A model generated the notes under the pieces. That model was not told where the DNA came from. It worked only from the letters and a program-made list of their open reading frames with translations, and did not search any database. Positions 21,732 through 43,607 of a DNA stretch of 64,000 nt are shown here, in pieces. This DNA comes from an uncultured bacterium. GTDB taxonomy: Bacteria; CSSED10-310. The stretch's first letter is position 1. Every line of letters begins with the position of its first letter. The stretch covers positions 83,797 to 147,796 of the forward strand of contig CAYOJK010000001.1 in assembly GCA_964404285.1 (NCBI GenBank), written 5' to 3'. The position numbers and the translations under genes were made by a program.

Positions 21732-21797
21732 CAATGCCTCCTTTCTGCTTGGCTGGCAGGGAAATTATCCCGTGCCAGCCCGTTTCGATGTTTGCGG

Positions 21798-25082: not shown

Positions 25083-25259
25083 ATGGAGATTTCAAAAAAG
25101 AAGCTTGAAGAATTCAAGCAAATTATCCGCGAAGACTACGGCCAGGAGCTTTCCGACAAGGAAGCATACCGGGTTGCCAACAAGGTGCTGACAATGTTCA
25201 GGATCATTTGCCAGCCCCAGCCTGAGGACTTCCGAAATAATCACAAACAAGATGCCTAA
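25083..25259 (+). CDS. small ORF (58 aa) overlapping the serine recombinase start; candidate accessory/directionality factor
   Basis: The ATG at 25083 reads through to a TAA at 25257-25259, which overlaps the recombinase ATG at 25252. The product is MEISKKKLEEFKQIIREDYGQELSDKEAYRVANKVL.... It is below the 60-aa cutoff of the supplied track and has no clear RBS. Confidence 0.3.
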   Translation: MEISKKKLEEFKQIIREDYGQELSDKEAYRVANKVLTMFRIICQPQPEDFRNNHKQDA

Positions 25260-26829
25260 ATATTTCGTTTACACGCGCAAATCGACCGAATCGGAGGACA
25301 AACAAGTCCTATCCCTGGAATCCCAGCAAAAAGAGCTGGATAGTTTTGTCGAGCGAGAGAAACTGGAAGTCGTGGAATATATCGAGGGTGAATCGAAGAG
25401 CGCGAAGCAGCCTGGAAGGCCGATTTTCGACAAAATGATCAAGCGGATCGAGAAAGGAGAAGCTGACGGGATCATTGCCTGGCATCCGGATCGGCTTGCT
25501 AGAAATTCCGTTGACGGCGGGAAAATTATTTATCTGCTCGATACAGGCAAGCTGAAAGAGCTGAAATTTCCGACGTACCGTTTCGAGAACGACTCCCAGG
25601 GAAAGTTCATGCTTAACCTGATCTTCGGCCAGTCGAAGTATTACGTTGACAGCCTGAGCGAGAACGTAAGGCGTGGAAACAAAACGAAGCTCGAAAAAGG
25701 CTGGCTTCCGGGCGTCGCGCCCATGGGATACCTGAACGATGTAAAAAACAAGACAATCGTGAAAGATCCAGAAAGGTTTCGGCTGATCAGAAAGATGTGG
25801 AATATGCTGCTTTCCGGCGCGTATTCCGTCCCTGAGATCCACCGGATAGCCTGCGATGACTGGGGCTTTAAGACGAAGAAGTTCAAGCGGACAGGCGGCA
25901 AGGAAATCAGTCGGAGCATGATTTATAGGCTGTTTGAGAATCCATTCTATTACGGGCTGATCAGACGCAATGGCGACACATACCAGGGAGCGCATGAACC
26001 GATGGTGACACTCGCCGAGTTCGAGCGAGTGCAGAGATTACTCGGAAGGGATGAACGTCCAAGATATGAAAAACATGATTTCGCTTATACAGGAATGATC
26101 CGGTGCGCCGAATGCGGTTGTCAGATTACCGCGAGCAATCACAAAAATCGGTTCGGATCTCGGTATATCTATTACCACTGTACAAAACGAAAAAAAGGAG
26201 CCAAATGCTCCCAAAAATATGTGCGATTAGAGGAATTGGAACGGCAGATCCTAAAAATACTGGACGATATTACGATTTCCGATCAGGTCAAGGATTGGGC
26301 TATCCAGTATCTGCGAGAGAAAAATGACAGCGAGATTATTGACCGACAGCAGATATTCAAAGCCCAGCAACGAGCTTATGCAGCCTGCCAGAAGCAACTT
26401 GACGAACTAACCCGGATGCGCCTGAGAGATCAGGTGAACGATTCAGAATATGCCTCCATGAAAAAGGAACTTTTATCGGAACTGATCAGCCTAAAAGAAA
26501 AATTGACCGATACGGAGCATCGGGCGAGTAGATGGTTTGAACTTTCAGAGAAGGCGTTTATATTCGCGAATGAAGCGAAAAAACGGTTCGAGACCGGATC
26601 ATTCAATCAAAAACGGGAAATTGTCCAATCTCTCGGTTTGAACTTTTCATTGAAGGACGGAAAACTGCATGTACAACTGGAAATTCCGTACCTCATAATA
26701 TCGAAAAAACCTAAAAATCGCAGTTGGCAGGCCACAGTAGACATAATCGGAACCTTTTTTCGTAAATTGGACGGTGATTTCCATATTCCAACTTGGACTT
26801 CTGAAAATGAGTCCGCAATCACCCCTTAG
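25252..26829 (+). CDS. large serine recombinase (resolvase/invertase N-domain + recombinase + zinc-ribbon domains)
   Basis: 525-aa ORF with the N-terminal catalytic domain YTRKSTESEDKQVLSLESQ (Ser nucleophile), a DRLAR motif and a central recombinase domain. A Cys pair (CAECGC...HCTKRK) is followed by a coiled coil. Confidence 0.9.
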   Translation: MPKYFVYTRKSTESEDKQVLSLESQQKELDSFVEREKLEVVEYIEGESKSAKQPGRPIFDKMIKRIEKGEADGIIAWHPDRLARNSVDGGKIIYLLDTGKLKELKFPTYRFENDSQGKFMLNLIFGQSKYYVDSLSENVRRGNKTKLEKGWLPGVAPMGYLNDVKNKTIVKDPERFRLIRKMWNMLLSGAYSVPEIHRIACDDWGFKTKKFKRTGGKEISRSMIYRLFENPFYYGLIRRNGDTYQGAHEPMVTLAEFERVQRLLGRDERPRYEKHDFAYTGMIRCAECGCQITASNHKNRFGSRYIYYHCTKRKKGAKCSQKYVRLEELERQILKILDDITISDQVKDWAIQYLREKNDSEIIDRQQIFKAQQRAYAACQKQLDELTRMRLRDQVNDSEYASMKKELLSELISLKEKLTDTEHRASRWFELSEKAFIFANEAKKRFETGSFNQKREIVQSLGLNFSLKDGKLHVQLEIPYLIISKKPKNRSWQATVDIIGTFFRKLDGDFHIPTWTSENESAITP

Positions 26830-26947: not shown

Positions 26948-27451
26948 TCATTTCTTCAGATGGAAGACTGTTGTAGCAACTATTGGGTCTATGCAAGGAG
27001 TTGTCTTATATTCATTTAGATTTGTTTTGTCCACCTTTTCTGGCATTTTATATGCTGGTAACGTGAACTTGAGTTCATAGTCACCTTCTGGAAGCTCAAA
27101 GTCTTTTAAGTTTATAGTCTTTTGGCAAACAAGATAACTTGAGCTTGGCAGATAGAAGAAAGTCCTTCCCATTGGGAAATGCACATCTGTAACAAGGAAT
27201 CCTTTGTTAATTGCCGGATCATCTAGTTTGACAAAATGATAAGGTATGTCAGAGCCTACTCTTTCCAAGATCTTATCATCGAGAATACAACCCTCGGCAT
27301 CATCTGCACACATCAATTTAAGATTAATCTGCATTTCTTCACATTCATAAAATGTCTTTTTCTCCAGTTCGATTTCCATCTTTACCTGGCTATATGCAAT
27401 TTGGTGGAACATGAAAAAAACGGATAGTATCGTTAAATGTGACAATCTCAT
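26948..27451 (-). CDS. secreted small protein, candidate immunity protein for the RHS C-terminal metallopeptidase toxin
   Basis: 167-aa ORF with a signal-peptide-like N-terminus (MRLSHLTILSVFFMFHQIAYSQ). Its ATG overlaps the RHS stop codon (ATGA), indicating translational coupling. Confidence 0.5.
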   Translation of the reverse strand: MRLSHLTILSVFFMFHQIAYSQVKMEIELEKKTFYECEEMQINLKLMCADDAEGCILDDKILERVGSDIPYHFVKLDDPAINKGFLVTDVHFPMGRTFFYLPSSSYLVCQKTINLKDFELPEGDYELKFTLPAYKMPEKVDKTNLNEYKTTPCIDPIVATTVFHLKK

Positions 27452-30400
27452 GGTAACTCCTTTGTTGGGCTTAATCTATTCGTCCTCCTTTGCCGTTTGT
27501 CATAAAGCTTCACCTCCTGAAGGACCTTTTTGATATAGGGAATATTTCTAATCTCTTCAGGTCTCTTATTATGGGGCTCATACTGTTTTTTTAGAACCGT
27601 ATAATCATATGCTTCCTGTGCAGCAGTCCCCAGGTTGCTGATTGCGTCTTCTGCGTGCCCAATCTCATGTATCAATACACCTGCTAACTTTTTGTTTCTT
27701 GTAACGAGCACGTCCTCGACGGTGATTGTAACGCCGTATAGAACTGTTAAATCGGGATTTATAGTATCTGTCACTTTAGTCCCTGTGCTATCAAGTTTCA
27801 TTGCGGGAGAAATCCTTGCTTTATGTGTTCCTTCGGCTGGTATACCCGTTGGATCTACAAGGTTCTGGCCAGATGTTATAGTTAAGTCTGGATTTTGAGT
27901 TCCTCTATATTTAGCAAGAGTGCTTTTTACTGTTGGAGATGCATTTTCTAAACTTAAAACCATTCCCTCCAATGCTTTTGAATGGGGTCCTCTGAAAAAT
28001 ATTTCAAGACCGTTAGGATCTGTGAAATTTACAGGGTTATTTTGGCAAAATGTATAGCGGTTCCAACTTTGCGGGTTTTCCAAATATCCTTTTATAGCAT
28101 CAGGACTTAAAAACCTTGGAGGCAATTCATAGTTTGTTTGCTCGGTGATGGCATTAAGATAACGAGCGTTGAAATAGTGTTTCTGGGTTGTAGATTCGAA
28201 CAGTTTACCAGTGTATCGAATATCTTGTGCGGAAAACACCGGACTTCCAAGATCATCAAAATCTGCGCCAAAGGGCTCGTAATTGTGCACCTCATATGGC
28301 AGGCCGCCTGTTTGCTCCGGCCATACTATTGTGGCAACATCATTAGTGAACGCCATTGGGGAGCCAAGGTGATTAAGGTGCGCAAAAATGATAGTAGTTG
28401 TTGCTCCATCATCTGTAACTCTTACTAAGAGTTCTCCACCTAAATAAATATTATCAATGAAAAGCATTGCTGATGTATCGAACTCTGATAGTAAAAGTTC
28501 TCCGAGATATGAATAAATGAATGTGTTGCTTCCTTCTGCCTTGTAAATTCTCTTATCTATTCCGTCATATCGGTATTGAACTGTAGAGTCGGTATCGATC
28601 AGTTTCCCTAGCTCATCGTAGGTGTAAAGATAAATGCTGTCATCGGTCATATTGCCGTCAGCATCATGAGTAACGCTGGCAATCTTGTTATTGGAATAGG
28701 TGAAGCTTGAGGTGTCTGAGGGATTGGTTTTGGCAACACTCAGAATATTGCCCACGCTGTCATAGGAATAGGTGAAATTCCTGCTCCCAAGTCCGGTGGC
28801 CGTCTCAATCCTGTTCAAATTGTCATACGTGAAGGTGGTTGTTCCAAGTTCGGTGATGTTACCAAAGGCATCATAGGCAAAACTATCGTTCACTAAATCA
28901 TCAACGCCGATTTGCGTGACCCAGCTCGATGGCCGATTTCGAACATCATGAGAAATTGTCGTTACAACTCCATTGCCAAACACATACTCTTCAAGCCCGC
29001 CTGCCGGATTGTGCAGGAGACCATTTGCCATGGTCTGTGTTCCGGAACTCCCGGTAAGAGATATTGTTTCCAGTAGATTTGTTCCCGCTCCATATGTGTA
29101 AGAAACATCGATTCCGGACGGATAAACGATATTGTTGAGGTTCCCCAGCGTGTCATATCCAAAGTAATAACTTGCAGTCAGTGCTGGACTTGCAAGGTTT
29201 ACATCTTTTAATAGATTGCGTCCCTGGACATCAAATTCCGGCCAGACTAAAATGCTCTCCTCGTTAAGAGACACACCTTTACGCACTACAGCACCGGTTC
29301 GGTGATTGAAAGCCTCCACATAAAAACCTGGAGCGTCATCACCGGTAAAATTCAATATGTCATCTCCATCATAGTAGTAGTCCACCTTGATTTGATCTGC
29401 TCCGCTGCCGGCATTCTTTGAAGTTAATCTGTAGATCTCATCATACGTGAAGCTGATAACCCTGCCAGAAGCTTTGGAGATTGTCTCGACTTGGCCGGAA
29501 TTATAATAGGTGTAAGTGACGGTGCCTGTTTCCGGATGTGTCTCGCTTGTCAAGCGCCCTAGGCCGTCATAGATAAACGTCCGGTCAGAACACGTCACAT
29601 CATTGGGATGATCTACCAACGTCAGATTATCCAGGACATCATATCCATAGTCGAAAAGCTTGCTGTCGGCATCGGTAATCTGATCCAGCCTGCCCAGAGC
29701 ATCATATAATTTCACTGTTGTCTGGGTTCCTCTAGTAATAGTCACTTCATTTCCGTCATAGGAATAGGTCGTTGTTCCGTCCGGATCAGTCACGTCAATC
29801 AACCTGTTGAGGGGGCCATATGTGTAATACATTCCGTCTGTTGAAGAAGACGAAAATGATGCTTCCGAGATGAAATTTGGATTCCCGACAGCATCGTATT
29901 CCTGATTAATGTAGGATGGCCCGGCTTGGTCGCTCGGAATTATGGTCTGTTTCAATCTGCCTAGAGCGTCGTAATTGTAGGTTATAGAATACGATCCCTG
30001 TGTTGATGTTACCTGTCCGCCAGTCACATCATATGTCAGAGCCGTTTGCAGGTCTGAGGGTGGTGTTATCTGGATCAAATGCCCCAGATCGTCATAAACA
30101 TAATTCGTCGTGTTCCCGTTCGGATCGGTGATGCTTGTCACTCGGCCTGTATCCGGGTCAACTCCTTGTGAAAACGTCATGTAACTTGAATCCGGCAACT
30201 GCTGAGGAGTGGTGATTTGAGAAATGGTTCCGGCATTCCAGGCAAATGTAGTCACCTTGGCTTGTGCATCTGTAATCGTGTAAAGATTGCCTGCATCTCC
30301 TGCTGAAGTGTAATAAGCATATCCCACTATAATGTCAGGGGATCCGGTGGACGGATCTGTCCACTGATTCACCGACTGCAAGCGAGTAAATTTGGGGTCA

Positions 30401-33400
30401 CCTAGACTACTGAAATACTCACTTCGTGTTCTGGATTTGACTGTGCCACCGGTGTTCCCCTCTATTATTTCTTCTTGGTAAACTCCGCTCAGAAAATTGG
30501 CTGTCCTGAAGTTAGAATATCCGGAACAAGCACTTTCCCAGACATAAATGTAGCTGGTCGTCCTCTCAGCGGTATCGGAGTAGTTGTATTCGATCACATT
30601 TCCAGGCATTCCGAGAGCCACATAATTCTCAAGGTCTGCCAGATCCCCATCGGCACCTGGATAGATGTATTCTATTTTGGAGCTTACCTGTCCGCGGGAT
30701 TCCTGTTGCTTCAATAGCGGAACCTGGCTTGAATACAGGTTTTGATTGTGACCAGGTTCTTGCGAAACGGTTTTAATGAGTTGCGAGATCCTTCCCCCTT
30801 TTGTGGTGCCATGTAGAATTGTATCAGTTTGAGTTATCACCGGGAAATGGACATACTCCCGGTCATTGTTTAGTTTACGCCACCTGGAAAGCCGCCTGGA
30901 CTCATAGGTTTTTGTTTCCGTCTTTACTGGCGATCCCCCGGATACCAGACCATCATAGTAGATAATCTCCGCGGACAATCCGATTTTCCACTCCGCGATA
31001 TCCCCGAGATCTGTGGAGTAATAATTCCAGTAGCGATATTGCGTGTCATTACCCAAGGGGTCGTTCACAACCGTATACTGATCCAGCGGGCCATAGGTCG
31101 CGATGCTGTAGGTTGTTGTTCCTGCCGTGACATCTGAGCCGTCTGCCGTTCTGGAAACTATCGAGATGTCTGCGTAGGTTCGATCATAGATGTTGCTTCC
31201 ATCGAAAGCTTTCAGGTGGAACTCGTGCTCTTCATGGGCATATGTGATGGTGCCGCCAGTTGGAAGCAGAATATCTGTCAGAACTCCGAAGGCCGGTGAT
31301 GCAATATCACCGTCATAGCTGTATGCAGTAGACATGTCGCCTGGATCTCCGCCAGTTCCGTTTGCACGAGCAATAACCGTATCCAAAGCGTTCCTGCCAT
31401 AACCGAACTCTGTGACTGAATATTCAATATAGACGCTGTTGTTCGGGCCTCTTATTTGCGTCAGAAATCCGGATGCGTAATCAAACTCAACGACTCTGCT
31501 ATAGGTGTCGGTCACGTTGTCCACGACCATACGTCCGCCTTCAACTCCGTAGGCGATGGAGATACGATTACCGCTTACTCCATCAGCATCCGCGCTCCGG
31601 ATCTCGCTGACCGCAGCGCAATCCTTCTGCCAGCACTCAACCAGATTGGTCTCCGTATAAAAATCTGAGCGATCGAAGTAGTATTTTATCCCGCTGGTCG
31701 TTGTCAGGAGAAGATCATAGGCCAGCCCGCTGACGTTGATTTTTTCAAGCTTCCACAAGTCACTCGTATATTTTGGATATCCTCCCTGACTTCCTGAATG
31801 TGGCACTTCATATGCGACATGCCGGGACCCGTCAGGCATCACGATGACAGGCGTATCGCTATCCATATTTAGGATTTTCCCAAAATGAATATCCCAACCA
31901 AGACCAAGACAGGTTTCCGGGATGAATTTTTGAGTGAAAATATTGTCGTCACCCCACGGCGTCCGCTCTTTGATGCAGCTGCTATATGTCCTCAAAACAT
32001 TTACGTCCAAACCGCCTTTGCCCGACAGATGGAGGTCGGTATAAGTCAGGTTTACCTTCCCGGTGAATGTATCGATAGACTCTTCCGGCATTCCGGCCAG
32101 ATTGACATGGTTGGCATCGAATCCTGGCGTTGAAAAATGTTCAGGATAATACACGTAATCATCCCCTGGATGCCCTCGATCTTTATTCGTGCTGATCCAA
32201 CAGAAATTGGCTACTCCGACAGGGTTGTCTGCCGTCAGTGTCACATATTCCGGATTCGGATAGGCATAGATGCTGCTCTTCTCGGCAGTGACGGTATAGG
32301 ATGCGGGGAATGTTCCGGGATTGAGCGCAAAGTAGTAGTCTCCTTCTGTTGTGGTTTCTCTTGTCAGCCCGCCAGGATTCAGCGTTATTGTGGCTCCGCT
32401 GACCGGGCCTGTGGGAGAACGCACCTTGCCGTGGATCATTGCACATACAACCTGGATATCACGCTCATATGTCCTGGGTTCGGAAACGACAACCGTTTCC
32501 ATAGATTCCTGGCAATCATCGACTAGAGCAACAACATAATACGTTCCCAGGGGAAGAATTGTCGGGTCATCTGCTGTGGTGTATACGCCTTCTACATTGG
32601 TTTGAACAGTGAAGTAGAAGTCTTCCACCAGATTTATAACAATTACATCCTCTCCGGAGCCGACAGGCGTTTCTCCGGGATATTCACCGATTGTAACCGT
32701 TCCGGTAATAACCGGTTTTTCAAGATAGACTTGAAAATAGACAGGGGAGCCAAAGTCTGCGTTGGCGCAGGTTGCCCGAACCCAGATATCTCCCTCATAG
32801 TTCGGTAACGGGCCGATCCATGAGGCATTACCCTCTGAGTCTGTGGTTACATTATCAAGTAAGGTGTAAGAACCATACTGCGTTGTTGACCATTCAAAAA
32901 CGACATTCTCACCGGGGACACCTGAAAGCGGATCGTCTGTGGCTATCAATAATTTTGGTCTCTTCTGAGGATCTCCAACATACTCCGAGCTATAACACCA
33001 AGCGTAATAATCGTAACCGGTTCCTACTGCCCAAAGGCCAAGGCCATAACTGGACGGACTCGCTGAGAACCAATCCTGAACCAAACCGGACGGAAGATCG
33101 TAATAATTATACTGGTCATCGACGATTGTAAAATCTTCGCCGGGATTGATCTCATACCAGTCAGGTCGAGTATTCCATGTCACTGAAGTCTCATACCAGT
33201 CTTCGGTAACATTGAACATCCATCCATGCAAAAGAGTTGACGACGGATAAGTATCGTAAACGTAAAGCCTCAGGGTGCCACCCAAGACATTGTATGGATA
33301 TGAGGGGTTATTAAACTTAAGATACGTGTAAGCTTCCCTGGGCTGCGTGACAACTATTCTTCTTCCGAAATTCAAGTCTGTGCCGTTAAGGTTCTGATCG

Positions 33401-34554
33401 GGCCATCTCTGATCCACAAAAGCATCATTTGTCGGCTCAACCTCTGTTGTGTAAACTAGCCGAGCGACAAGCGGCTCTTCCAGGTCTTTTGTGGGGACAC
33501 CGGATTGATTGTTGCCGCTGGCCATGGTCAACATCGTGGATTGGGCAAAGGTCGCCGGAATGGATAGAGCCAGCAAGATCGCGATTGATAAAACGGCCTT
33601 TCTTCTCATTTTCATAACTCCTCCGATGAGAAACAGGGCAATAAAAATTCCCCAAATGCTCATGCTCGGCAGTGGGGGAAGCACATATTCAAACCATCCC
33701 ATATCAAAATCTGAACTCCAATAAGGGTATTCATCACCCTGGTCTGTTCCCGCATCGAAGCAGGGAGACATCTCATTGATTCGGTAGTTCGAATCCCAAA
33801 GCGGGTCTTGGCTGATGCTGTTCGGACCGGCTGAGCAACCAACATAGTTGTCGTCCAAATTATTCCAGACATCGTTATAATCCAGTGTGGGAAGGGCTGA
33901 TCCGGAGCACCGGATTCCGGCCGTTCCCATCCCTGTCTGGCCGTTTCCCGCGACGATGTTGTCCTGAATGTCTGCTGATGACTCATAAGCCCGGATACCG
34001 TCGTTACTGTTGCTTGCGATGGAATTATAGTGCACAAAGGCTGACGAATAGACCAGTTCAAGCCCGATTCCCCCGTTTTCAGCGATCAGGTTTTTATGAA
34101 TAATGCCATCACCGAGGAGATAGAGTCCGCCTCCTGCATTGTTGATTATCCGGTTGCCAACGACTTCAACCGTTTCGAAATATCCATGGACGGCAAATCC
34201 AGACGAGCTTCCTCCGGTTATTGTGAACCCTTCCAACCTTGAGTCGTTTGCCAACTCTACAACAGGAAATGAACCGTTCCCGTCAATTACCGTGACTCCC
34301 GACTTATAGAAATAGTCATTGTAACCATCCGTTCCCTGGTCATAACTTTTCAGGGTTACTCCATCTTTCATCGTGACTTGCTCCTGGTAAGTTCCCGGAT
34401 AAACGACAACTTCATCCCCATATTCCGCGGCTATCAAAGCTTCATGGATAGTTGGATAATCCTGACCGCTGGGGCCAACTGTGATCGTGGCTGCAAATGA
34501 TGAAAAAGAATACACCAAGGTAATTAATAAAAGCATCAGGATTGCCAGTTTCAT
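27448..34554 (-). CDS. RHS/YD-repeat polymorphic toxin with C-terminal HExxH zinc-metallopeptidase toxin domain, fused in frame to an N-terminal ~313-aa parallel beta-helix protein
   Basis: Single 2368-aa frame. Residues 1-313 carry signal peptide 1, a pectate-lyase-like beta-helix and a C-terminal hydrophobic anchor followed by RRK. Residues 314 onward begin MKMRRKAVLSIAILLALSIPATFA (signal peptide 2) preceded by a GGAGGA RBS, followed by Ig/carboxypeptidase-regulatory-like domains and many YD repeats (YTYDALGRL, YGYDVLDNL...). The RHS core ends NPVNFTDPNGL, and a ~180-aa C-terminal domain has LIHEIGHAED. Confidence 0.85.
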   Translation of the reverse strand: MKLAILMLLLITLVYSFSSFAATITVGPSGQDYPTIHEALIAAEYGDEVVVYPGTYQEQVTMKDGVTLKSYDQGTDGYNDYFYKSGVTVIDGNGSFPVVELANDSRLEGFTITGGSSSGFAVHGYFETVEVVGNRIINNAGGGLYLLGDGIIHKNLIAENGGIGLELVYSSAFVHYNSIASNSNDGIRAYESSADIQDNIVAGNGQTGMGTAGIRCSGSALPTLDYNDVWNNLDDNYVGCSAGPNSISQDPLWDSNYRINEMSPCFDAGTDQGDEYPYWSSDFDMGWFEYVLPPLPSMSIWGIFIALFLIGGVMKMRRKAVLSIAILLALSIPATFAQSTMLTMASGNNQSGVPTKDLEEPLVARLVYTTEVEPTNDAFVDQRWPDQNLNGTDLNFGRRIVVTQPREAYTYLKFNNPSYPYNVLGGTLRLYVYDTYPSSTLLHGWMFNVTEDWYETSVTWNTRPDWYEINPGEDFTIVDDQYNYYDLPSGLVQDWFSASPSSYGLGLWAVGTGYDYYAWCYSSEYVGDPQKRPKLLIATDDPLSGVPGENVVFEWSTTQYGSYTLLDNVTTDSEGNASWIGPLPNYEGDIWVRATCANADFGSPVYFQVYLEKPVITGTVTIGEYPGETPVGSGEDVIVINLVEDFYFTVQTNVEGVYTTADDPTILPLGTYYVVALVDDCQESMETVVVSEPRTYERDIQVVCAMIHGKVRSPTGPVSGATITLNPGGLTRETTTEGDYYFALNPGTFPASYTVTAEKSSIYAYPNPEYVTLTADNPVGVANFCWISTNKDRGHPGDDYVYYPEHFSTPGFDANHVNLAGMPEESIDTFTGKVNLTYTDLHLSGKGGLDVNVLRTYSSCIKERTPWGDDNIFTQKFIPETCLGLGWDIHFGKILNMDSDTPVIVMPDGSRHVAYEVPHSGSQGGYPKYTSDLWKLEKINVSGLAYDLLLTTTSGIKYYFDRSDFYTETNLVECWQKDCAAVSEIRSADADGVSGNRISIAYGVEGGRMVVDNVTDTYSRVVEFDYASGFLTQIRGPNNSVYIEYSVTEFGYGRNALDTVIARANGTGGDPGDMSTAYSYDGDIASPAFGVLTDILLPTGGTITYAHEEHEFHLKAFDGSNIYDRTYADISIVSRTADGSDVTAGTTTYSIATYGPLDQYTVVNDPLGNDTQYRYWNYYSTDLGDIAEWKIGLSAEIIYYDGLVSGGSPVKTETKTYESRRLSRWRKLNNDREYVHFPVITQTDTILHGTTKGGRISQLIKTVSQEPGHNQNLYSSQVPLLKQQESRGQVSSKIEYIYPGADGDLADLENYVALGMPGNVIEYNYSDTAERTTSYIYVWESACSGYSNFRTANFLSGVYQEEIIEGNTGGTVKSRTRSEYFSSLGDPKFTRLQSVNQWTDPSTGSPDIIVGYAYYTSAGDAGNLYTITDAQAKVTTFAWNAGTISQITTPQQLPDSSYMTFSQGVDPDTGRVTSITDPNGNTTNYVYDDLGHLIQITPPSDLQTALTYDVTGGQVTSTQGSYSITYNYDALGRLKQTIIPSDQAGPSYINQEYDAVGNPNFISEASFSSSSTDGMYYTYGPLNRLIDVTDPDGTTTYSYDGNEVTITRGTQTTVKLYDALGRLDQITDADSKLFDYGYDVLDNLTLVDHPNDVTCSDRTFIYDGLGRLTSETHPETGTVTYTYYNSGQVETISKASGRVISFTYDEIYRLTSKNAGSGADQIKVDYYYDGDDILNFTGDDAPGFYVEAFNHRTGAVVRKGVSLNEESILVWPEFDVQGRNLLKDVNLASPALTASYYFGYDTLGNLNNIVYPSGIDVSYTYGAGTNLLETISLTGSSGTQTMANGLLHNPAGGLEEYVFGNGVVTTISHDVRNRPSSWVTQIGVDDLVNDSFAYDAFGNITELGTTTFTYDNLNRIETATGLGSRNFTYSYDSVGNILSVAKTNPSDTSSFTYSNNKIASVTHDADGNMTDDSIYLYTYDELGKLIDTDSTVQYRYDGIDKRIYKAEGSNTFIYSYLGELLLSEFDTSAMLFIDNIYLGGELLVRVTDDGATTTIIFAHLNHLGSPMAFTNDVATIVWPEQTGGLPYEVHNYEPFGADFDDLGSPVFSAQDIRYTGKLFESTTQKHYFNARYLNAITEQTNYELPPRFLSPDAIKGYLENPQSWNRYTFCQNNPVNFTDPNGLEIFFRGPHSKALEGMVLSLENASPTVKSTLAKYRGTQNPDLTITSGQNLVDPTGIPAEGTHKARISPAMKLDSTGTKVTDTINPDLTVLYGVTITVEDVLVTRNKKLAGVLIHEIGHAEDAISNLGTAAQEAYDYTVLKKQYEPHNKRPEEIRNIPYIKKVLQEVKLYDKRQRRTNRLSPTKELP
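27463..27522. repeat. 60 bp direct repeat, copy 2 (inside the last codons of the RHS gene)
   Basis: See copy 1 at 19576-19635. Confidence 0.9.
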
Positions 34555-34790
34555 TACAATTCCCTCCTAACTAAATCAAACGTCTATTGCTGATCATATC
34601 CCCGGAACTGGTCTGAAGTCAATCAACGGTATTTTCTGGTGTGACCGGAGAAAGTTTGACATCATTTACATCCTCGCTGGCAAGGCGCTTTAATGCGTAG
34701 TAAAATACTATGACCGCAGATTTTCCCGGTATCCTCAAAGTCATATCCGTCATCACCAGTTACCCCAAGAAACAACCTGCTTCGGTGAAA

Positions 34791-35042
34791 TTACGGATTA
34801 CGTGGGTCATACCCAATAAACTCGATAATCTTTAGGATCAGTTTGTCCTGGGGATACGAGTGAGACATCTCCCAGTTGTGAATGGTGCCTTCGTCAACAC
34901 CGATTATGTTGGCAACATCTCTCTGGAAAAGCTTCAAGTCCATCCGTCTCCTGCGGATATGGTCGCCAATCGTTCTTGGCGTTTCCGGGTACGAGAAAGG
35001 CAATGGTTTCGAGGCTTTGAGCGTAAGTGGCAACTGTTCCAC
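34791..35042 (-). CDS. XRE-family HTH regulator at the island edge
   Basis: 83-aa ORF with an HTH_3-like segment (IRRRRMDLKLFQRDVANIIGVDEGTIHNWEMSHSYP). Its GTG start abuts the right comM repeat, so the start is uncertain. Confidence 0.55.
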   Translation of the reverse strand: MEQLPLTLKASKPLPFSYPETPRTIGDHIRRRRMDLKLFQRDVANIIGVDEGTIHNWEMSHSYPQDKLILKIIEFIGYDPRNP

Positions 35043-35044
35043 GC

Positions 35045-35637
35045 AACCCTGCCCATGTGGTTATTACTCACATCCGGAAAAAACCTGTTTGTGCAGACCG
35101 GATATCATCGCTAAATATTTGGGGCGGATATCCGGGCCATTGTTGGATCGTATCGACTTACACATTGAGGTCAACGCGGTCAAATTCAGCGATCTGCAGG
35201 ATCGCCGACGAGGGGAATCTTCCAAGTCCATTCGGGAACGAGTGGAAGCCGCTCGACAGATTCAGCAGACGCGGTTTTCGGAATCGGCCTCGTCAAATGG
35301 CAACCTGGCATCACACTGCAATTCTCACATGTCATCCCGTGAAATCCGGACCTATTGCAAGCTCAACAGTGACGGGTATCGTTTGATGGAACATGCCATG
35401 AAAAGGCTGGGGCTGACGGCTCGAGCCTACGACAGAATATTGAAAGTCGCCAGAACCATTGCTGATCTGGCGGATTCCGAAACCATAGAATCGCATCATC
35501 TTGCAGAAGCCATTCAGTATCGTGCGCTGGACAGATCTCACTGGACACAGGCGCATACTTACTGAGTTTGCTCCTCTTCCTCCTCATTACCATTAACCCT
35601 TCAACCGGCACGCCAATCACGGCGTGCCGACCTTTTT
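35045..35637 (+). pseudogene. orphan 3' fragment of comM (right copy of the ~595 bp repeat, putative attR) with its own terminator
   Basis: It encodes the last ~175 aa of ComM ([69 protein letters not shown]...) with several substitutions relative to the intact gene and no N-terminal ATPase domain. A six-frame ORF at 34882-35565 extends upstream into unrelated sequence. Confidence 0.85.
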
Positions 35638-37756: not shown

Positions 37757-38012
37757 AGGAATATGCCATCAAAGTGATCAACACCTTATACATCCGATTA
37801 TCTAATTACTAATCTGCCAATTCAAATAGCTCCTTATGTTAGGATGATTCAACAGCTCTTTTTCTTGTAGCAAAGACTATTTTTCTTTTGGATTATTTTG
37901 TGAAATTCGGGTCGGATTGACCAATCACCCAAAATCCTCCATAATACAAGCATTGCTGCCTTTGCAAAGGCTTATGTTTGTTAGTTTGCACTCATTAACA
38001 CAGGCAAGGACT

Positions 38013-38630
38013 ATGGATACAAAAATTGCAGTTTTCAAAGGGAAGAAAGTCCGGAAAACCATTCACAATAATGAATGGTGGTTTTCGGTAGTTGATGTAT
38101 GTTCAATTTTAACAGAGAGCGCCGATCCAGGCGCTTATTGGCGCAAGTTAAAACAACGACTGAAAGAAGAAGGAAGTGAAGTCGTGACATTTTGTCACGG
38201 GTTGAAATTAGAAGCTCCGGACGGAAAGATGAGAAGCGCCGATTGCGCAAATACAGAGCTTCTCTTCCGTGTAATCCAATCAATCCCGTCACCCAAGGCA
38301 GAACCATTCAAACGATGGCTCGCAAAAGTCGGATACGAACTGGTTCAGGAAATCGAAGATCCAGAGTTGGCGACAAAGCGCACCCGGGCTTTATATAAAG
38401 CCAAGGGATATAGTGACAACTGGATCGAAAAGCGGATGCGCGGAATCGCAATCCGGGATGAACTCACCGATGAATGGCAGAAGCGTGGTGTCAGGGAAGC
38501 GTCCGAATACGCGATACTGACAGCGGAGATATCCAAGGCGGCATTCGACATGACGCCATCGGAATATAAAAAGCACAAGAATCTGAACGGGAAAATCGAT
38601 GGGATCATTCATGCCCGTATTGGATTATAA
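38013..38630 (+). CDS. Bro-N domain protein (phage BRO/antirepressor-like N-terminal domain)
   Basis: The ATG at 38013 gives MDTKIAVFKGKKVRKTIHNNEWWFSVVDVCSILTES..., a typical Bro-N domain pattern. The six-frame ORF starts at 37917, upstream of this ATG. Confidence 0.65.
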   Translation: MDTKIAVFKGKKVRKTIHNNEWWFSVVDVCSILTESADPGAYWRKLKQRLKEEGSEVVTFCHGLKLEAPDGKMRSADCANTELLFRVIQSIPSPKAEPFKRWLAKVGYELVQEIEDPELATKRTRALYKAKGYSDNWIEKRMRGIAIRDELTDEWQKRGVREASEYAILTAEISKAAFDMTPSEYKKHKNLNGKIDGIIHARIGL

Positions 38631-39003
38631 GGGAGTGTCCTACGGTTTTTTTGTGCTTAGGACATACGGCGCGATCGAGATACAGTTTTAGCATTTAAAA
38701 CAAAAGCCACCATTCGATCATATCGACATGCGCAATCTGTTGCGCAGTAAGTTAAACGAAATTAAGAATGTTGATATCCCAGAAGACGGTATTGAAAGAA
38801 GACCTAGTTATAAAGTCTCCATGATAACGAAAGAATCACAGTTTAATACGTTTATCTCGGCAATGAACTGGGCAGTTTCGCAGATAAAAAATCAATCTTC
38901 ATATCACACCAGATAGTTTGTCTAAAAAAGCCTTATCAACCAGTTCTTTCATTTATGCTGAAAAATGGGTACTATTAGCAGTAAGAAAATGTGAGGATTG
39001 TTT

Positions 39004-42000
39004 ATGAATACACAAGAAAACGATGCCAATACCTCTGGATTAAATGTTTTAAAACCAAGAAAAGCTCTAAACAAAGCATTTCTAAAAGTTAAACCCAAGA
39101 GGATAGAATTTGAATATTTTAAGAATAATCTTATCCAGTTACTTGACAGGATCAATGAAACAGAATCAGAAGAGTTTCACAAAAATCTAGTCATCGATTT
39201 TTTTAAAAAAACTTATTATGAACCGAATCATTTTATCAATACCAAAGGACGAACAGACCTTGTAATACACAACGGAGACAAAGCGAATAGTTCAGTAGGT
39301 GTAGTTATCGAAACCAAAAAGCCTACGAACCGAAGTGAAATAGTAACCACTTCGAATCTCAATACAAAGGCATTTCATGAACTGGTGCTTTACTATTTGC
39401 GCGAACGAATCACCGAAAATAATCTAGAAGTAAAACATCTGATAATCACAAATATCAATGAATGGTTTATTTTTGATGCGACAACATTTGACAGAATGTT
39501 TGCACAAAACAAACACTTTGTAAAACAATTCAACGATTTTGAGAGCGGGCGTTTGGCAGACATTAAAACCGACTTCTTCTACAGACAAATTGCTGACCCA
39601 TTTATTGCAAACTTTAAAAATGTAATTGAATTTACATATTTCAACATTCAGGATTACCAACAATTTCTTCGAAATGGAAATAAAGCTGATGACAACAAAC
39701 TGATAGCTCTTTTAAAAATCTTATCACCTGAACACCTTTTAAAGCTTCCATTTGCCAATGATAGTAACAGCCTTGATAAAAGTTTTTACAGCGAACTGCT
39801 GCATATTATCGGTTTGACAGAGGTTAAAGAAAAGAGCAAAAGACTTATTCAAAGAAGCAAGGAAGGTGAACGAAATTCTGGCAGTATTTTGGAAGATGCT
39901 ATTGTACAAATTGATAGCCTGGATAAAATATCACGATTGGACCAGCCAGAAAAATACGGAAAAACTAAAGAAGAACAGTTTTTCAATGTTGCGCTAGAGC
40001 TTACCATTACTTGGATAAACAGAATATTGTTTTTAAAATTATTGGAAGCGCAATTACTTACCTACCACAAAGGTGATGAATCATATTCGTTTCTAAAAAT
40101 TGAAAGAGTTAAAAATTATGATGACTTAAACAGTCTGTTTTTCCAGGTGTTGGCTAAAAAACATGACGAACGTAATGCAAATGTTAGAAGAATGTTTGAG
40201 AAAATCCCTTACCTGAATTCCTCGCTTTTCGAGATGACAGAATTAGAACATATATGCTTCTCGATTACCCAGTTGAATAACAATTCTGAAATGCCAATCT
40301 ATCAACAGACTGTTTTAAAAACAGACACGGGTAAAAAGCGTAGTGGTGTAATCCCAACGCTGGAATATCTATTTGAATTCCTAAGCGCTTATGATTTTAG
40401 TAGTGAAGGATCAGAGGAAATACAGGAAGAAAACAAAACGCTTATAAATGCATCTGTTTTAGGATTGATATTCGAAAAAATTAACGGTTATAAAGATGGT
40501 TCATTTTTTACGCCTGGCTTTATTACCATGTACATGAGCCGTGAAACTATACGCAAAGCGGTTGTTCAGAAGTTTAATGAAGTAAAGAACTGGAATTGTG
40601 AAAACCTTACAGACCTTTATGACAAAATTGATAGCCGAGATGAAGCTAATGAGATAGTCAATAGTCTTAGAATTTGCGATCCAGCAGTTGGATCAGGGCA
40701 TTTTCTGGTATCAGCTCTGAATGAAATCCTTGCTGTTAAAAACGATCTTAAAATCCTGCAAGATCGTCAAGGCAGGCGCCTGAAGGAATATCAGGTTGAA
40801 GTTGAAAACGATGAGCTTATCGTAACGGACGAAGAAGGTGAGTTGTTTGAATACAAACCGAATAATAAAGAGAGTCAACGAGTTCAAGAAACACTGTTTC
40901 ATGAAAAGCAGACAATTATAGAAAACTGTCTTTTTGGGGTAGATATAAATCCTAACTCGGTAAAAATATGCCGTTTGCGATTATGGATCGAGCTTTTAAA
41001 AAATGCTTATTACAAAACCAATAACGAGCTTGAAACACTTCCCAATATCGATATCAACATAAAAACTGGAAACTCTCTCATAAATCGATTTAGCCTAGAT
41101 TCAGATATTAAAAAGGCATTAGGAAACAGCAAATGGACTATTGATGGTTATAAGGTTGCAGTATCGGCCTATCGCAATGCCCAGAACAGAGAACACAAAA
41201 AAGATATGTTACGAATTATTGATGATATTAAAAAAGATTTTCGGATGGAGTGTACTTTCAATGACCCCAAGAAGAAGAAACTAAGAAACTTGGGAGGTGA
41301 TTTATACACCCTGACAAAACAAAAAAGTATCTTTGAATTCACACCACAGGAAAAGAAGGAATGGGAAAACAAGGTTAAGAAAATTACAAACGAGATTGAA
41401 AAGCTTGAAAAAGAGATAGAAGAATTAGAAACAAGTAAAATTTTTGATAATGCATTTGAATGGCGTTTTGAATTTCCAGAAGCGCTGAATGATGACGGTG
41501 ATTTTGTGGGATTTGATGTGGTGATTGGTAATCCGCCATATATTCAATTGCAAAGCAATGGTGGACAACTGGCGAATCTGTATAAAAACCAGAATTATGA
41601 GACCTTTGACCGCAGCAGCGATATTTATAGCCTATTTTACGAAAAAGGCATAAACTTGTTGAAACCAAAAGGGCATTTGACTTTTATAACGTCTAACAAA
41701 TGGATGCGTGCCGCATACGGTAAAAGCACTCGAGAGTTCTTTTGCAAACATAAACCCGTCACGTTAATCGATTTGGGAAGTGATGTTTTTGAATCGGCTA
41801 CGGTGGATACCAATATACTGATTATGCAAAAAACAGATGAAAAAACACCTACCTGTTCCGTGAATGCTCTGGATATTTCAAAAGAGAAAGAAATAATCAG
41901 TTTTGATCGATTTGAAGACCAATGGATAGTTCTACAAAATCTGACTGAAGAGAGTTGGACAATAGTATCACCCTCAGAACAACGGATTATAGAAAAAATC

Positions 42001-42804: not shown

Positions 42805-43607
42805 ATAGTCCTGACTGGATTATGCTTTTCAATGTGAAGAAAATTTCTTGCACTGCTGGAACGCAGGACACGCTGAGTTTAAAGAATCTGCGAGACAAAA
42901 AATTGAATACGAAATGCGGTGCTTCACACTTTGAAGAATTCGAAGACGTTGAGTACTAGCATGTGACAAAGGTCGCTGATTTAAATTGATTTTACTCATA
43001 CCGCATATGAAGACCATGGAACGTTTACATACAGCTGATTTTCTAGAAAGTGAGGAATTAAAAATTGGCCAGTTACGAGCATAAAAAGTTATTAGAATAT
43101 ATCGTACGCCTGGACAAAGTCCCAGAGGATTCCAGACGGATTGAGTCAAACCTTTGAGACGCCCGCGGCGTTCATTTAAGGACTGACTCTTTGTCTGTAG
43201 TCAAGGTTTTCCGTGTTATTGATCCCGGCTATTTTCCATCGCATCCTTTCTATCCTCGCTCTCAAAGTTTACTACGCTAATCTTTTATAGGCTAGGTGTC
43301 TCATTCATATTGACACAGAGGGTCCTTTATAGTTTTACGGTACTGTAACCATGAGTAGCTGAAAGTGTTTCACTCATGCACATGCAATTCTTAATTTCAA
43401 CGATATTTAGTCTCACAAATCGCTGGTCATGTCAAGAACTTATTGACACCTGCCCCGTTTATTAAAAATCTGATTTTTTTGCTGTCACCAGGCCTCCTTG
43501 CATCTGCGATCCAAGCTGTTACCGAATATTTTTACCCATGCTCCAAATTATCGCCAATAATTTGACCTTTGCTCCAAATTATCGTATAAAAAACCGAGGT
43601 GATGACT

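What the first reader, a model, noticed from the sequence alone, without database searches (positions are those of the whole stretch)
33560..33700. Internal RBS plus second signal peptide inside the giant RHS ORF: two translational units in one frame
The 2368-aa frame has no stop, yet at codon 314-316 the sequence reads GGAGGAGTT-ATG-AAA-ATG-AGA-AGA-AAG (MKMRRKAVLSIAILLALSIPATFA-QS). This is a strong RBS correctly spaced for the second ATG, followed by a textbook n-h-c signal peptide. The ~20 residues just upstream (PPLPSMSIWGIFIALFLIGGV then MKMRRK) look like a C-terminal hydrophobic anchor plus basic tail of the preceding beta-helix protein (PEP-CTERM or sortase-like sorting signal). Either the RHS protein is made from the internal start and the upstream 313-aa pectate-lyase-fold protein is a read-through partner, or this is a genuine fusion with an internal TM hairpin. 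Both are unusual.
Basis: seen in the sequence. Interest (0 to 1): 0.6.

Follow-up and report, generated by a model that had tools for sequence, protein, structure and literature searches.

The report
Two secreted proteins fused in frame
One 2368-codon gene joins a sugar-enzyme-like surface protein, ending in its membrane anchor, directly to a complete RHS toxin precursor that keeps its own ribosome-binding site, start codon and export signal, so the cell can probably make the toxin either as part of a polyprotein or alone; it is an uncommon but not unprecedented arrangement.

Summary
ORF 27448-34554 has no stop, and GGAGGAG-TT-ATG-AAA-ATG-AGA-AGA-AAG lies at 33624-33598. It is not an assembly error: the identical 2368-aa product is called on at least 24 contigs from many samples.

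The protein reads: signal peptide, right-handed beta-helix, PPLPS motif, 16-residue hydrophobic helix, KMRRK, a second signal peptide with a TFA|Q cleavage site, then a full RHS toxin. An immunity-like gene follows.

- Four relatives keep the same in-frame junction. L004 is intact over 2386 aa.
- L001, L002 and L009 carry a stop or frameshift only in the upstream unit.
- A fifth relative (L008) encodes the RHS alone, starting at the position of the internal ATG.
- Unfused beta-helix relatives end right after an equivalent anchor.

Best reading: a conserved head-to-tail fusion of two export units. The hairpin would let signal peptidase separate them, and the retained Shine-Dalgarno/ATG would allow independent RHS synthesis. 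No processing step is demonstrated.

The anchor meets no curated sorting-signal model (IPTL-CTERM 13.4 bits, cut-off 20.5). Closest precedents are Haloferax HVO_0405 and the 'midcut-by-XrtH' family.

Verdict: new variant of a known kind, moderate interest.

The parts
27448..34554 (-). Single 2368-codon ORF: beta-helix unit, hairpin junction, then RHS toxin unit
   Evidence: The identical product is on at least 24 contigs.
34593..34622 (-). Best sigma-70-like promoter match (TTGACT-18-TATGAT, 10/12) upstream of the ORF. No minus-strand match lies between the ORF start and the internal ATG.
   Evidence: consensus scan only; weak evidence
34563..34568 (-). AGGAGG Shine-Dalgarno of the annotated start (ATG 34554-34552)
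   Evidence: Duplex energy -10.7.
34489..34554 (-). First signal peptide (residues 1-22, MKLAILMLLLITLVYSFSSFAA)
   Evidence: An equivalent signal peptide is present in L001, L002, L004 and L009.
33679..34488 (-). Right-handed parallel beta-helix domain (residues 23-292), ending in the conserved DMGWFEY motif
   Evidence: Pfam PF13229, PF07602 and PF05048. AlphaFold pLDDT above 90. Foldseek hits to pectate lyase, pectin methylesterase and alginate lyase folds. 68-73% aa identity to L004, L001 and L002 with saturated synonymous sites.
33664..33678 (-). PPLPS motif (residues 293-297), the signature-like element ahead of the anchor helix
   Evidence: Invariant in the window, L001 and L002; PPLPA in L004 and ELPA in L009. 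Sub-threshold IPTL-CTERM match.
33616..33663 (-). Hydrophobic helix 1 (residues 298-313, MSIWGIFIALFLIGGV): anchor or stop-transfer segment
   Evidence: helix 300-311
33618..33624 (-). Internal Shine-Dalgarno-like GGAGGAG, encoded by the Gly-Gly-Val codons of helix 1
   Evidence: Equivalent motifs in L004 (GGAGG), L001 (GGGAGG) and L002 (GGCGGAG); absent in L009.
33607..33615 (-). Two in-frame ATGs (M314 at 33615-33613; M316 at 33609-33607): candidate internal starts
   Evidence: The unfused homologue L008 starts at the aligned position.
33598..33612 (-). Basic cluster KMRRK (residues 315-319). It serves both as the cytoplasmic tail of the anchor and as the n-region of the second signal peptide.
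   Evidence: Equivalents are KMKKQ, KMKRQ, KIGKK and RRK in the relatives.
33541..33597 (-). h- and c-regions of the second signal peptide (residues 320-338, AVLSIAILLALSIPATFA). Predicted signal peptidase I site is TFA|QS, between 33541 and 33540.
   Evidence: Sequence rules (-3/-1 small residues, Pro at -5). Such sites are present in all five fused loci and in L008. Cleavage itself was not tested.
32944..33426 (-). DNRLRE / CBM96 domain (residues 377-537)
   Evidence: NF033679 at 76.1 bits; PF24517
31819..32082 (-). DUF6531 (residues 825-912), at the start of the RHS shell
   Evidence: 21.7 bits, slightly below the 24.1 cut-off
28006..31818 (-). RHS/YD repeat shell, ending in the Rhs-associated core (residues 2092-2183, 28006-28281) with PVNFTDPNGL
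   Evidence: PF05593 E=6e-31; TIGR01643; TIGR03696 at 47.5 bits. The motif was read.
27451..28005 (-). Variable C-terminal toxin domain (residues 2184-2368) with an HEIGH motif and no family match
   Evidence: Only 28% identity to the L004 C-terminus.
26948..27451 (-). 167-aa immunity-like ORF. Its ATG overlaps the RHS stop (ATGA) and it has its own AGGAG.
   Evidence: Called in the same position on other contigs.

Best explanation
The ORF is a genuine, evolutionarily retained, in-frame head-to-tail fusion of two complete export units.

Unit 1 consists of a Sec signal peptide, a polysaccharide-enzyme-like beta-helix, and a tripartite anchor (PPLPS motif, hydrophobic helix, basic cluster). Unit 2 is a full RHS polymorphic-toxin precursor with its own Shine-Dalgarno sequence, ATG and cleavable signal peptide. 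The basic cluster KMRRK is shared: it is both the cytoplasmic tail of the anchor and the n-region of the second signal peptide.

Inferred mechanism:
1. Ribosomes starting at codon 1 make a polyprotein.
2. The beta-helix is exported, helix 1 stops transfer, and KMRRK stays in the cytoplasm.
3. The second signal peptide re-starts export of the RHS part.
4. Signal peptidase I cuts after TFA338. This releases the same mature RHS that a separate gene would give and leaves the beta-helix protein held in the membrane by the hairpin. A sorting enzyme might process it further at PPLPS.
5. In parallel, ribosomes can start at M314/M316 and make the RHS precursor alone. That would explain why relatives with a broken upstream unit keep an intact RHS frame.

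Shown: the sequence layout, its conservation, the reality of the open frame, the homology of each unit to unfused proteins, and the SD strength.

Inferred: the membrane topology, cleavage by signal peptidase, use of the internal start, and any sorting-enzyme step.
For: 1. The open frame is real. The identical product is on at least 24 contigs from many samples.

2. The fusion is conserved.
- L004 is a single 2386-codon ORF with the same junction, at 57% N-terminal identity.
- L001 and L009 keep the junction in frame.
- Synonymous sites between these loci are saturated (pS 0.7-0.87), yet the beta-helix stays 68-73% identical to L004, L001 and L002. It is more conserved than the adjacent DNRLRE region at 34-35%.

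3. Unit 1 is a complete protein type. Unfused beta-helix relatives end just after an equivalent anchor that follows the same MG(A/W)(F/Y)EY motif (P0173, P0005; also P0162, P0184, P0227).

4. Unit 2 is a complete protein type. The homologue in L008 stands alone behind a 330-nt intergenic region with GGGGAGG-8 nt-ATG. Its signal peptide aligns with residues ~317-338 here.

5. The second hydrophobic segment looks like a signal peptide rather than a generic TM helix. It has a 12-13-residue h-region, a helix breaker at -5/-6, and small residues at -3/-1 in every locus: TFA|Q, AFA|V, TMG|D, VMA|D, VSA|E.

6. The internal SD is as strong as at real starts:
- window: -9.5, against -10.7 at the true start
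- L004: -10.8, against -9.1
- L001: -10.0, against -7.8
- L002: -6.4, against -6.2

7. All lesions seen in relatives lie in unit 1: L001 (1-nt deletion plus TGA), L002 (TAA in helix 1) and L009 (TAA at about codon 82). About 1180 (L001) and 770 (L009) downstream RHS codons stay open. By my own rough arithmetic, the chance of this placement if lesions fell uniformly is about 0.05.

8. These are the only hydrophobic segments in 2368 residues. Among the 150 best representative homologues out of 1.84 billion proteins, only the family member P0082 has such a hairpin.
Against: - No experiment or expression data exist. Cleavage, topology and internal initiation are all inferred.
- The SD could be a by-product of a conserved Gly-Gly in helix 1. 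GGA makes up 41% of Gly codons in this ORF. By my arithmetic, P is about 0.19 for three of four loci having GGA first.
- L009 has no SD before its only nearby ATG (-1.7).
- The local mRNA-structure test was uninformative.
- The lesions in L001, L002 and L009 are on short metagenomic contigs and could be errors or dying copies.
- Only five fused loci are known, and they are related, so conservation counts are not independent.
- No sorting enzyme lies in the window, and the anchor fails every curated sorting-signal model.
- The cell-envelope type of this candidate-phylum organism is unknown.
Confidence: 0.55

Rival explanations
1. A single, uncleaved protein. The two hydrophobic segments form a permanent membrane hairpin that tethers both the beta-helix and the RHS shell to the producer's cytoplasmic membrane. 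There is no internal initiation.
For: - Uninterrupted frame in the window and in L004.
- AlphaFold predicts helix 300-311, a break, then helix 318-330.
- The SD may be a side effect of the Gly-Gly codons.
- L009 lacks an SD.
Against: - The second segment has a short h-region and conserved -3/-1 small residues with a helix breaker. These are typical of cleaved signal peptides, not stable TM helices.
- The unfused homologue L008 uses the same segment as its N-terminal signal peptide.
- Relatives with a broken upstream unit keep the RHS open.
- A toxin permanently tethered by a hairpin has no obvious route to a target cell.
Confidence: 0.15
2. Effectively two genes. Only the internal start matters for the RHS. 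The missing stop is a neutral accident, and read-through product is a by-product or is degraded.
For: - Strong internal SD and ATG.
- An unfused homologue exists.
- Unit 1 is broken in L001, L002 and L009, and only a fragment remains in L010.
Against: - The open junction persists in four lineages whose synonymous sites are saturated.
- No separate basic tail exists for the anchor ahead of the ATG, so unit 1 needs read-through into KMRRK to have a complete anchor.
- Unit 1 has a strong SD of its own, and its beta-helix is under clear purifying selection. It is therefore translated, and its ribosomes must run into the RHS.
Confidence: 0.15
3. The hairpin is a target-cell membrane-insertion element, like the N-terminal transmembrane domains of T6SS prePAAR Rhs effectors.
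For: Rhs effectors with N-terminal TM domains implicated in translocation across the target membrane are known (PMC7773334).
Against: - No PAAR or prePAAR domain and no Eag-type chaperone gene. The protein has Sec signal peptides instead.
- The hairpin lies after a 290-aa exported domain.
- Its second half is homologous to the N-terminal signal peptide of an unfused relative.
Confidence: 0.04
4. Assembly or sequencing artefact: a stop codon or frameshift between two genes was lost.
For: None found.
Against: - The identical 2368-aa product occurs in at least 24 independently assembled contigs from several projects, plus a 1-aa variant.
- L004, at 57% identity, has the same open junction.
Confidence: 0.01

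Closest known systems
Haloferax volcanii HVO_0405 (archaeosortase ArtA substrate with a centrally located tripartite sorting signal)
   Same: [quoted passage not shown] The signal is still recognised and cut there (PMC7157517; original report cited in PMC11980579 as Abdul Halim et al. 2017, J Bacteriol 199:e00802-16).
   Different: - HVO_0405 is archaeal, a Tat substrate, and carries a PGF-type motif.
- Nothing I read for HVO_0405 describes a second signal peptide or an internal ribosome-binding site.
- Here the anchor is followed at once by a cleavable Sec signal peptide and a 2030-aa exported toxin.
- No sorting enzyme is identified here.
NCBIfam NF033207 'midcut-by-XrtH protein'
   Same: It is a curated family whose name records an exosortase-type signal in mid-protein rather than at the C-terminus. 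The tail of the unfused beta-helix relative P0173 touches this model weakly (20 bits against a 45 cut-off).
   Different: The window protein gives no hit to this model. The downstream part here is an RHS toxin with its own signal peptide. I could not find a paper on the family.
Sec-dependent RHS/YD-repeat polymorphic toxins (for example Bacillus subtilis WapA; from my own knowledge)
   Same: N-terminal signal peptide, RHS shell, Rhs-associated core with PxxxxDPxGL, variable C-terminal toxin, and a downstream immunity gene. The unfused relative L008 has exactly this layout.
   Different: In this ORF the signal peptide is internal. It is preceded in frame by another complete exported, anchored protein.
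Bradyrhizobium japonicum FbcH cytochrome b-c1 precursor (from my own knowledge: Thony-Meyer et al. 1991 PNAS; not retrieved)
   Same: It is a bacterial polyprotein in which an internal signal-peptide-like segment, following transmembrane helices, is cut to give two mature proteins from one ORF.
   Different: FbcH yields respiratory membrane proteins, not a toxin. As far as I recall there is no sorting-signal-like anchor and no retained internal SD. This resemblance rests on memory only.
T6SS prePAAR Rhs effectors with N-terminal transmembrane domains
   Same: They are Rhs toxins with hydrophobic helices upstream of the shell (PMC7773334).
   Different: They have no Sec signal peptide. They are defined by the prePAAR motif, a PAAR domain and an Eag chaperone, all of which are absent here.

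Membership tests
RHS / YD-repeat polymorphic toxin | RHS/YD repeats forming the shell | tested here: met
   PF05593 E=6e-31 with 7 stretches; TIGR01643 at 62.8 bits against a 15.8 cut-off
RHS / YD-repeat polymorphic toxin | Rhs-associated core ending in PxxxxDPxGL, ahead of the toxin domain | tested here: met
   TIGR03696 at 47.5 bits against a 32.5 cut-off. PVNFTDPNGL was read.
RHS / YD-repeat polymorphic toxin | Variable C-terminal toxin plus an adjacent immunity gene | tested here: inconclusive
   The C-terminal 185 aa is only 28% identical to L004, while the shell is 58-62% identical. A 167-aa ORF overlaps by ATGA. Neither has a family match, and no function was tested.
IPTL-CTERM sorting domain (TIGR04174) | Score at or above the curated cut-off | tested here: not met
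   13.4 bits against 20.5 for the window tail. No hit for the tails of L001, L002, L004 or L009.
IPTL-CTERM sorting domain (TIGR04174) | Located at the extreme C-terminus of the protein | tested here: not met
   The segment ends at residue 319 of 2368.
C-terminal tripartite sorting signals in general (sortase, exosortase, archaeosortase, rhombosortase substrates) | Signature motif, hydrophobic helix, then a basic cluster, in a protein with an N-terminal signal peptide | tested here: met
   PPLPS + MSIWGIFIALFLIGGV + KMRRK, with signal peptide 1-22. The layout is as defined in PMC11980579.
PEP-CTERM / exosortase system | PEP motif and a match to the PEP-CTERM model | tested here: not met
   No PEP-CTERM hit at E up to 10 for any of five tails.
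PEP-CTERM / exosortase system | Exosortase gene in the genome and multiple substrates sharing the tail | not testable with these tools
   Only 64 kb is available. No exosortase, sortase or rhombosortase was found among the ORFs scanned.
LPXTG / sortase substrates | LPXTG-type motif and model match | tested here: not met
   No hit for the window tail. Only the unrelated relative P0005 touches the LPXTG models.
midcut-by-XrtH (NF033207) | Match to the family model | tested here: not met
   No hit for the 320-aa N-terminal unit, the junction peptides or the 2055-aa unit.
Type I (signal peptidase I) Sec signal peptide, for residues 314-338 | Positively charged n-region, 7-15-residue hydrophobic h-region, c-region with small uncharged residues at -3 and -1 | tested here: met
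   MKMRRK / AVLSIAILLALSI / PATFA|Q. The equivalent pattern is present in L001, L002, L004, L009 and L008. Judged by rule; no SignalP was available.
Type I (signal peptidase I) Sec signal peptide, for residues 314-338 | Actual cleavage by signal peptidase | not testable with these tools
   Needs N-terminal proteomics or expression.
T6SS prePAAR / PAAR Rhs effectors | prePAAR motif, PAAR domain, Eag chaperone gene | tested here: not met
   No PAAR or DUF1795 hit in the ORF or its neighbours.
Right-handed parallel beta-helix (pectate-lyase-like fold) | Beta_helix repeats and a beta-helix 3D fold | tested here: met
   PF13229 at 42.3 bits against 25.9. Model mean pLDDT 85, above 90 over the domain. 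Foldseek top hits are Pel9A, pectin methylesterases and PL6 alginate lyases, E 3e-6 to 1e-4. No catalytic residues were checked.

The most novel reading that the evidence does not exclude
The junction would be a purpose-built, self-resolving linker for a bacterial secretory polyprotein. A sorting enzyme would cut at PPLPS and signal peptidase I at TFA|Q, discarding the hairpin. The cell would thereby co-export, in fixed 1:1 ratio, a surface-attached polysaccharide-active beta-helix and a free RHS toxin. The helix-1 codons would also encode a working ribosome-binding site (dual coding), giving a second, independently tunable route to the toxin.
Probability: 0.25. Interest if true: 0.6.

Novelty: new variant of a known kind. 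Interest (0 to 1): 0.4.

Why it matters
If the polyprotein reading holds, this would be a natural bacterial case of two Sec-exported proteins made from one reading frame. They would be separated by ordinary export machinery: a stop-transfer anchor followed by a cleavable internal signal peptide.

- It would extend the small set of 'mid-protein' sorting signals (HVO_0405, midcut-by-XrtH) to a candidate phylum and to polymorphic toxins.
- It would give a compact natural linker for co-secretion.
- It shows that an anchor's basic tail and a signal peptide's n-region can be the same residues.
- For annotation, gene callers report one giant protein here. In relatives they split the locus at arbitrary points, hiding a likely internal start.

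If the fusion is merely a tolerated one, the case is a curiosity of a mobile RHS toxin cassette.

Tried and rejected
1. Assembly artefact: rejected. The identical product is on at least 24 contigs.

2. Membership in PEP-CTERM, LPXTG, IPTL-CTERM or midcut-by-XrtH: no curated threshold was met.

3. Tat signal: the RR pair is present only in the window and L009; the others have KK or KR, so Sec is more likely.

4. Lipoprotein signal: there is no lipobox. The Cys-Cys in L001 and L002 is not preceded by allowed -3..-1 residues (read).

5. Local mRNA structure around the internal ATG: uninformative, because even the true starts are not unusually open.

6. Internal promoter: no match between the two starts, but the scan is a weak consensus tool.

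7. dN/dS: synonymous sites are saturated (pS 0.7-0.87), so only the qualitative statement of purifying selection on the beta-helix is possible.

8. Wider family sampling:
- The metagenome-contig scan gave one distant beta-helix relative.
- The word-indexed search across the junction found only P0001.
- The exhaustive representative search found only P0082 and P0115 as junction-relevant hits.
- The family is therefore small in current data.

9. Selenocysteine at the L001 TGA that replaces a conserved Cys: considered, but a 1-nt deletion sits 6 nt upstream, so a decaying copy or an error is more likely. Not followed up.

10. The DNA resemblance between the L008 5'UTR (ATGGGGAGGTTTACAAAATGA) and the L001 junction (ATGGGAGGTTTATTATTCAAAATGA): the spacing differs by 4 nt and the elements are generic SD and A-rich spacer. 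It was not used as evidence.

11. Literature searches for midcut/XrtH, bacterial internal-signal-peptide polyproteins and fbcH returned nothing usable.

12. PDB sequence search with the N-terminal unit: no hit.


Full report
**Observation**

The finding lies on the minus strand. ORF 27448..34554 (-) is 2368 codons with no stop. On that strand the sequence reads GGAGGAG (33624-33618), TT, ATG (M314, 33615-33613), AAA, ATG (M316, 33609-33607), AGA AGA AAG.

A hydropathy scan finds only three hydrophobic segments in the whole protein: residues 1-22, 295-317 and 318-338.

It had not. The exact 2368-residue product is on record from 24 contigs read (29 index blocks), drawn from ENA, Logan and NCBI assemblies of different samples. 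A one-residue variant occurs on further contigs, including a 1.08 Mb contig.

**Anatomy**

Residues 1-22 are a signal peptide, preceded by AGGAGG 8 nt upstream of the ATG.

Residues ~23-292 are a right-handed parallel beta-helix:
- Pfam Beta_helix, DUF1565 and NosD match.
- The AlphaFold model has pLDDT above 90 across this domain.
- The best Foldseek matches are pectate lyase Pel9A, pectin methylesterases, PL6 alginate lyases and mannuronan epimerases, at 10-17% identity.

Then follow PPLPS, a 16-residue hydrophobic helix, KMRRK, and a 13-residue hydrophobic stretch ending in P-A-T-F-A|Q-S.

Downstream are:
- a DNRLRE/CBM96 domain;
- Ig-like or carboxypeptidase-regulatory-like segments;
- DUF6531;
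- RHS repeats;
- the Rhs-associated core with PVNFTDPNGL;
- a 185-residue C-terminal domain with an HEIGH motif and no family match.

A 167-aa ORF overlaps the stop codon (ATGA) and has its own AGGAG. This is the usual position of an immunity gene.

**Source organism and genomic context**

A neighbouring PrsA is 66-75% identical to proteins named 'candidate division CSSED10-310 bacterium'.

The locus sits at one end of a ~17 kb integrated element inside a comM-like gene. The last ~595 nt of comM (17699-18292) recur at 35047-35637 at 90.6% identity. The element carries a serine recombinase and a replication-relaxation protein.

**Relatives**

Six related loci were recovered.

| Locus | Source | State of the upstream unit and junction |
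|---|---|---|
| L004 | MAG in GTDB | Single 2386-codon ORF, 57% identical over residues 1-377, different C-terminal toxin. Junction PPPLPAIGLGGILMLLAVFGGAMMKIGKKSMSLLLFIAAFSTQPTAFA\|VS |
| L001 | JGI, 5.1 kb | Junction in frame (PPLPSLNTLGILFSLAIMGGLLFKMKKQSLLMLFVAGICCIQGITMG\|DD), then 1180 open RHS codons. The beta-helix has a 1-nt deletion and a TGA in place of a conserved Cys codon |
| L002 | JGI, 1.2 kb | In-frame TAA in the middle of helix 1; the same frame continues through FGGAFFKMKRQ... |
| L009 | GCA_016932295.1 | In-frame TAA at about codon 82 of the beta-helix. Junction open: YELPALHWIGLAGLLCAMGILLRRKGVLIGLLIAVLLVPGIVSA\|ET |
| L008 | GCA_016927905.1 | RHS homologue alone, behind a divergently transcribed gene and a 330-nt spacer. 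GGGGAGG-8 nt-ATG; N-terminus MTGSLVFAAILFALILPSACA\|QEP aligns with residues ~317-340 of the window protein |
| L010 | JGI | Only a 120-residue beta-helix fragment, in an unrelated context |

Unfused beta-helix relatives end just after an equivalent anchor that follows the same MG(A/W)(F/Y)EY motif. P0173 ends ...VPALTPIGLLALIGLLSLIAVSVIKSRVHD and P0005 ends ...LLLRRREAN. P0162, P0184 and P0227 also have C-terminal anchors.

Among the 150 best representatives of a search of 1.84 billion proteins, only the family member P0082 has a hydrophobic / basic / hydrophobic hairpin between soluble domains. The other such hairpins in the window belong to ordinary polytopic membrane proteins.

**What this shows**

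Each half is homologous to a complete, independently encoded secreted protein. The join occurs exactly where one ends (anchor) and the other begins (signal peptide). The basic cluster is shared, and no separate basic tail lies ahead of the ATG.

The fusion is old. Synonymous sites between the window and L004, L001, L002 and L009 are saturated (pS 0.7-0.87). Even so, the beta-helix is 68-73% identical to L004, L001 and L002. That makes it better conserved than the neighbouring DNRLRE region (34-35%) and as well conserved as the RHS shell. The upstream unit is therefore a functional, translated protein, and in the intact loci its ribosomes must continue into the RHS.

**Is the internal start used?**

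Points in favour:

1. Duplex energies with the anti-SD are as strong as at real starts.

| Locus | Internal ATG (kcal/mol) | Rank among ATGs of the ORF | True start (kcal/mol) |
|---|---|---|---|
| Window | -9.5 | top 2.4% | -10.7 |
| L004 | -10.1 / -10.8 | top 1% | -9.1 |
| L001 | -10.0 | top 1% | -7.8 |
| L002 | -6.4 | top 11% | -6.2 |

2. An ATG is kept next to the basic cluster in four loci, although the hairpin is only 27-42% identical.
3. The unfused homologue starts there.
4. All lesions in relatives fall in the upstream unit while the RHS frame stays open. By my rough estimate, the chance of that placement is about 0.05.

Points against:

1. The SD is written in the Gly-Gly codons of helix 1. 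GGA is 41% of Gly codons in this ORF, so GGAGG could be a by-product.
2. L009 has no SD.
3. The lesions sit on short metagenomic contigs.
4. The mRNA-structure test was uninformative.
5. No promoter-like site lies between the two starts, so both would share one transcript (weak evidence).

I put the probability of appreciable internal initiation at roughly 0.6.

**Likely mechanism (inferred)**

From the upstream start:
1. SP1 targets the chain to Sec and the beta-helix is exported.
2. Helix 1 stops transfer and KMRRK stays cytoplasmic, in line with the positive-inside rule.
3. The second hydrophobic segment re-initiates export.
4. Its c-region is then exposed to signal peptidase I. Small residues at -3/-1 and a helix breaker at -5/-6 are conserved in every locus.

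Cleavage would release the same mature RHS as the unfused gene gives. It would leave the beta-helix protein anchored by the hairpin, and a sorting enzyme might then act at PPLPS. From the internal start, the RHS precursor is made alone.

Either route yields two separate mature proteins, which explains why losing a stop codon between them could be tolerated and then retained.

**Comparison with known systems**

The layout 'signature motif, hydrophobic helix, basic cluster' defines sortase, exosortase, archaeosortase, rhombosortase and myxosortase substrates (PMC11980579).

Membership in any specific family is not supported:
- IPTL-CTERM is the only model touched, at 13.4 bits against a cut-off of 20.5, and only by the window's tail.
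- No PEP-CTERM, LPXTG or midcut-by-XrtH match was found.
- No sorting enzyme is in the window.

The closest precedent is Haloferax volcanii HVO_0405. [quoted passage not shown] NCBIfam's 'midcut-by-XrtH' family is a curated bacterial analogue by name.

From my own memory, the Bradyrhizobium FbcH cytochrome b-c1 precursor is a bacterial polyprotein cut at an internal signal peptide. I could not retrieve a paper for it.

T6SS prePAAR Rhs effectors also carry N-terminal TM helices (PMC7773334). They lack Sec signals and are defined by prePAAR/PAAR and Eag chaperones, which are absent here.

What is different here is the back-to-back arrangement of anchor and cleavable signal peptide with a shared basic cluster, the retained ribosome-binding site, and the RHS toxin as the downstream partner.

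**Verdict**

The sorting-signal label holds only at the level of architecture.

It is a new variant of known kinds, namely mid-protein sorting signals, polyproteins with internal signal peptides, and Sec-dependent RHS toxins. So far it is found in a handful of uncultured lineages. Interest is moderate. All processing steps remain to be shown.

Noticed in passing
window 16646-18292 and 34882-35637: A comM/yifB-like Mg-chelatase gene (16646-18217, +) is intact. Its last ~595 nt recur at 35047-35637 at 90.6% identity, beside a 227-aa comM 3' fragment ORF. The ~17 kb between them looks like an integrated element carrying a serine recombinase (25252-26829), a replication-relaxation protein (22608-23522), several unassigned ORFs (19135-22292) and the RHS/immunity pair at its edge.
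   Followed up: partly
L001 1342-1352; L002 1118-1120; L009 1843-1845: Every disabling lesion in the related loci falls in the beta-helix/anchor unit: a 1-nt deletion plus TGA at a conserved Cys codon, a TAA inside helix 1, and a TAA at about codon 82. The downstream RHS frames stay open. Whether these are real mutations, sequencing errors or recoding was not resolved.
   Followed up: partly
window 27451-28005 (-) and 26948-27451 (-): The RHS C-terminal ~185 aa carries an HEIGH (HExxH) motif, has no Pfam match, and is only 28% identical to the L004 C-terminus. The overlapping 167-aa ORF (ATGA) also has no family. On some contigs of the same strain the downstream gene is called as 154 aa, starting 36 nt after the stop.
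   Followed up: partly
L010 5095-5631: An isolated fragment of the beta-helix (residues ~107-227, 87% identical) sits in an unrelated context, next to a 902-aa gene on the other strand with no similarity to the RHS. It is apparently a remnant of the cassette.
   Followed up: partly
window 38998-42804 (+), 37917-38630 (+), 43599-44747 (+): Just outside the element lie a 1268-aa single-chain restriction-modification enzyme of the MmeI/Eco57I type (DUF7149, DUF7814, Eco57I, TaqI_C), a BRO-N protein and an AAA_14/DUF4143 ATPase.
   Followed up: no
window 46282-47397, 47797-48924, 48994-50898 (-): Two full-length dnaJ paralogues lie in tandem downstream of dnaK.
   Followed up: no
L008 3984-4004 vs L001 1484-1509: The 5'UTR of the unfused RHS gene (ATGGGGAGGTTTACAAAATGA) resembles the coding junction of L001 (ATGGGAGGTTTATTATTCAAAATGA). 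This could be a trace of the original ribosome-binding site or just generic SD plus A-rich spacer. The spacing differs by 4 nt.
   Followed up: partly
window 9250-10677 (-): A 475-aa subtilisin-like protease gives its best NCBIfam match to T7SS mycosin (170 bits, below the 279 cut-off). It lies in a housekeeping stretch with tsaC, ispE, prs and bL25.
   Followed up: no
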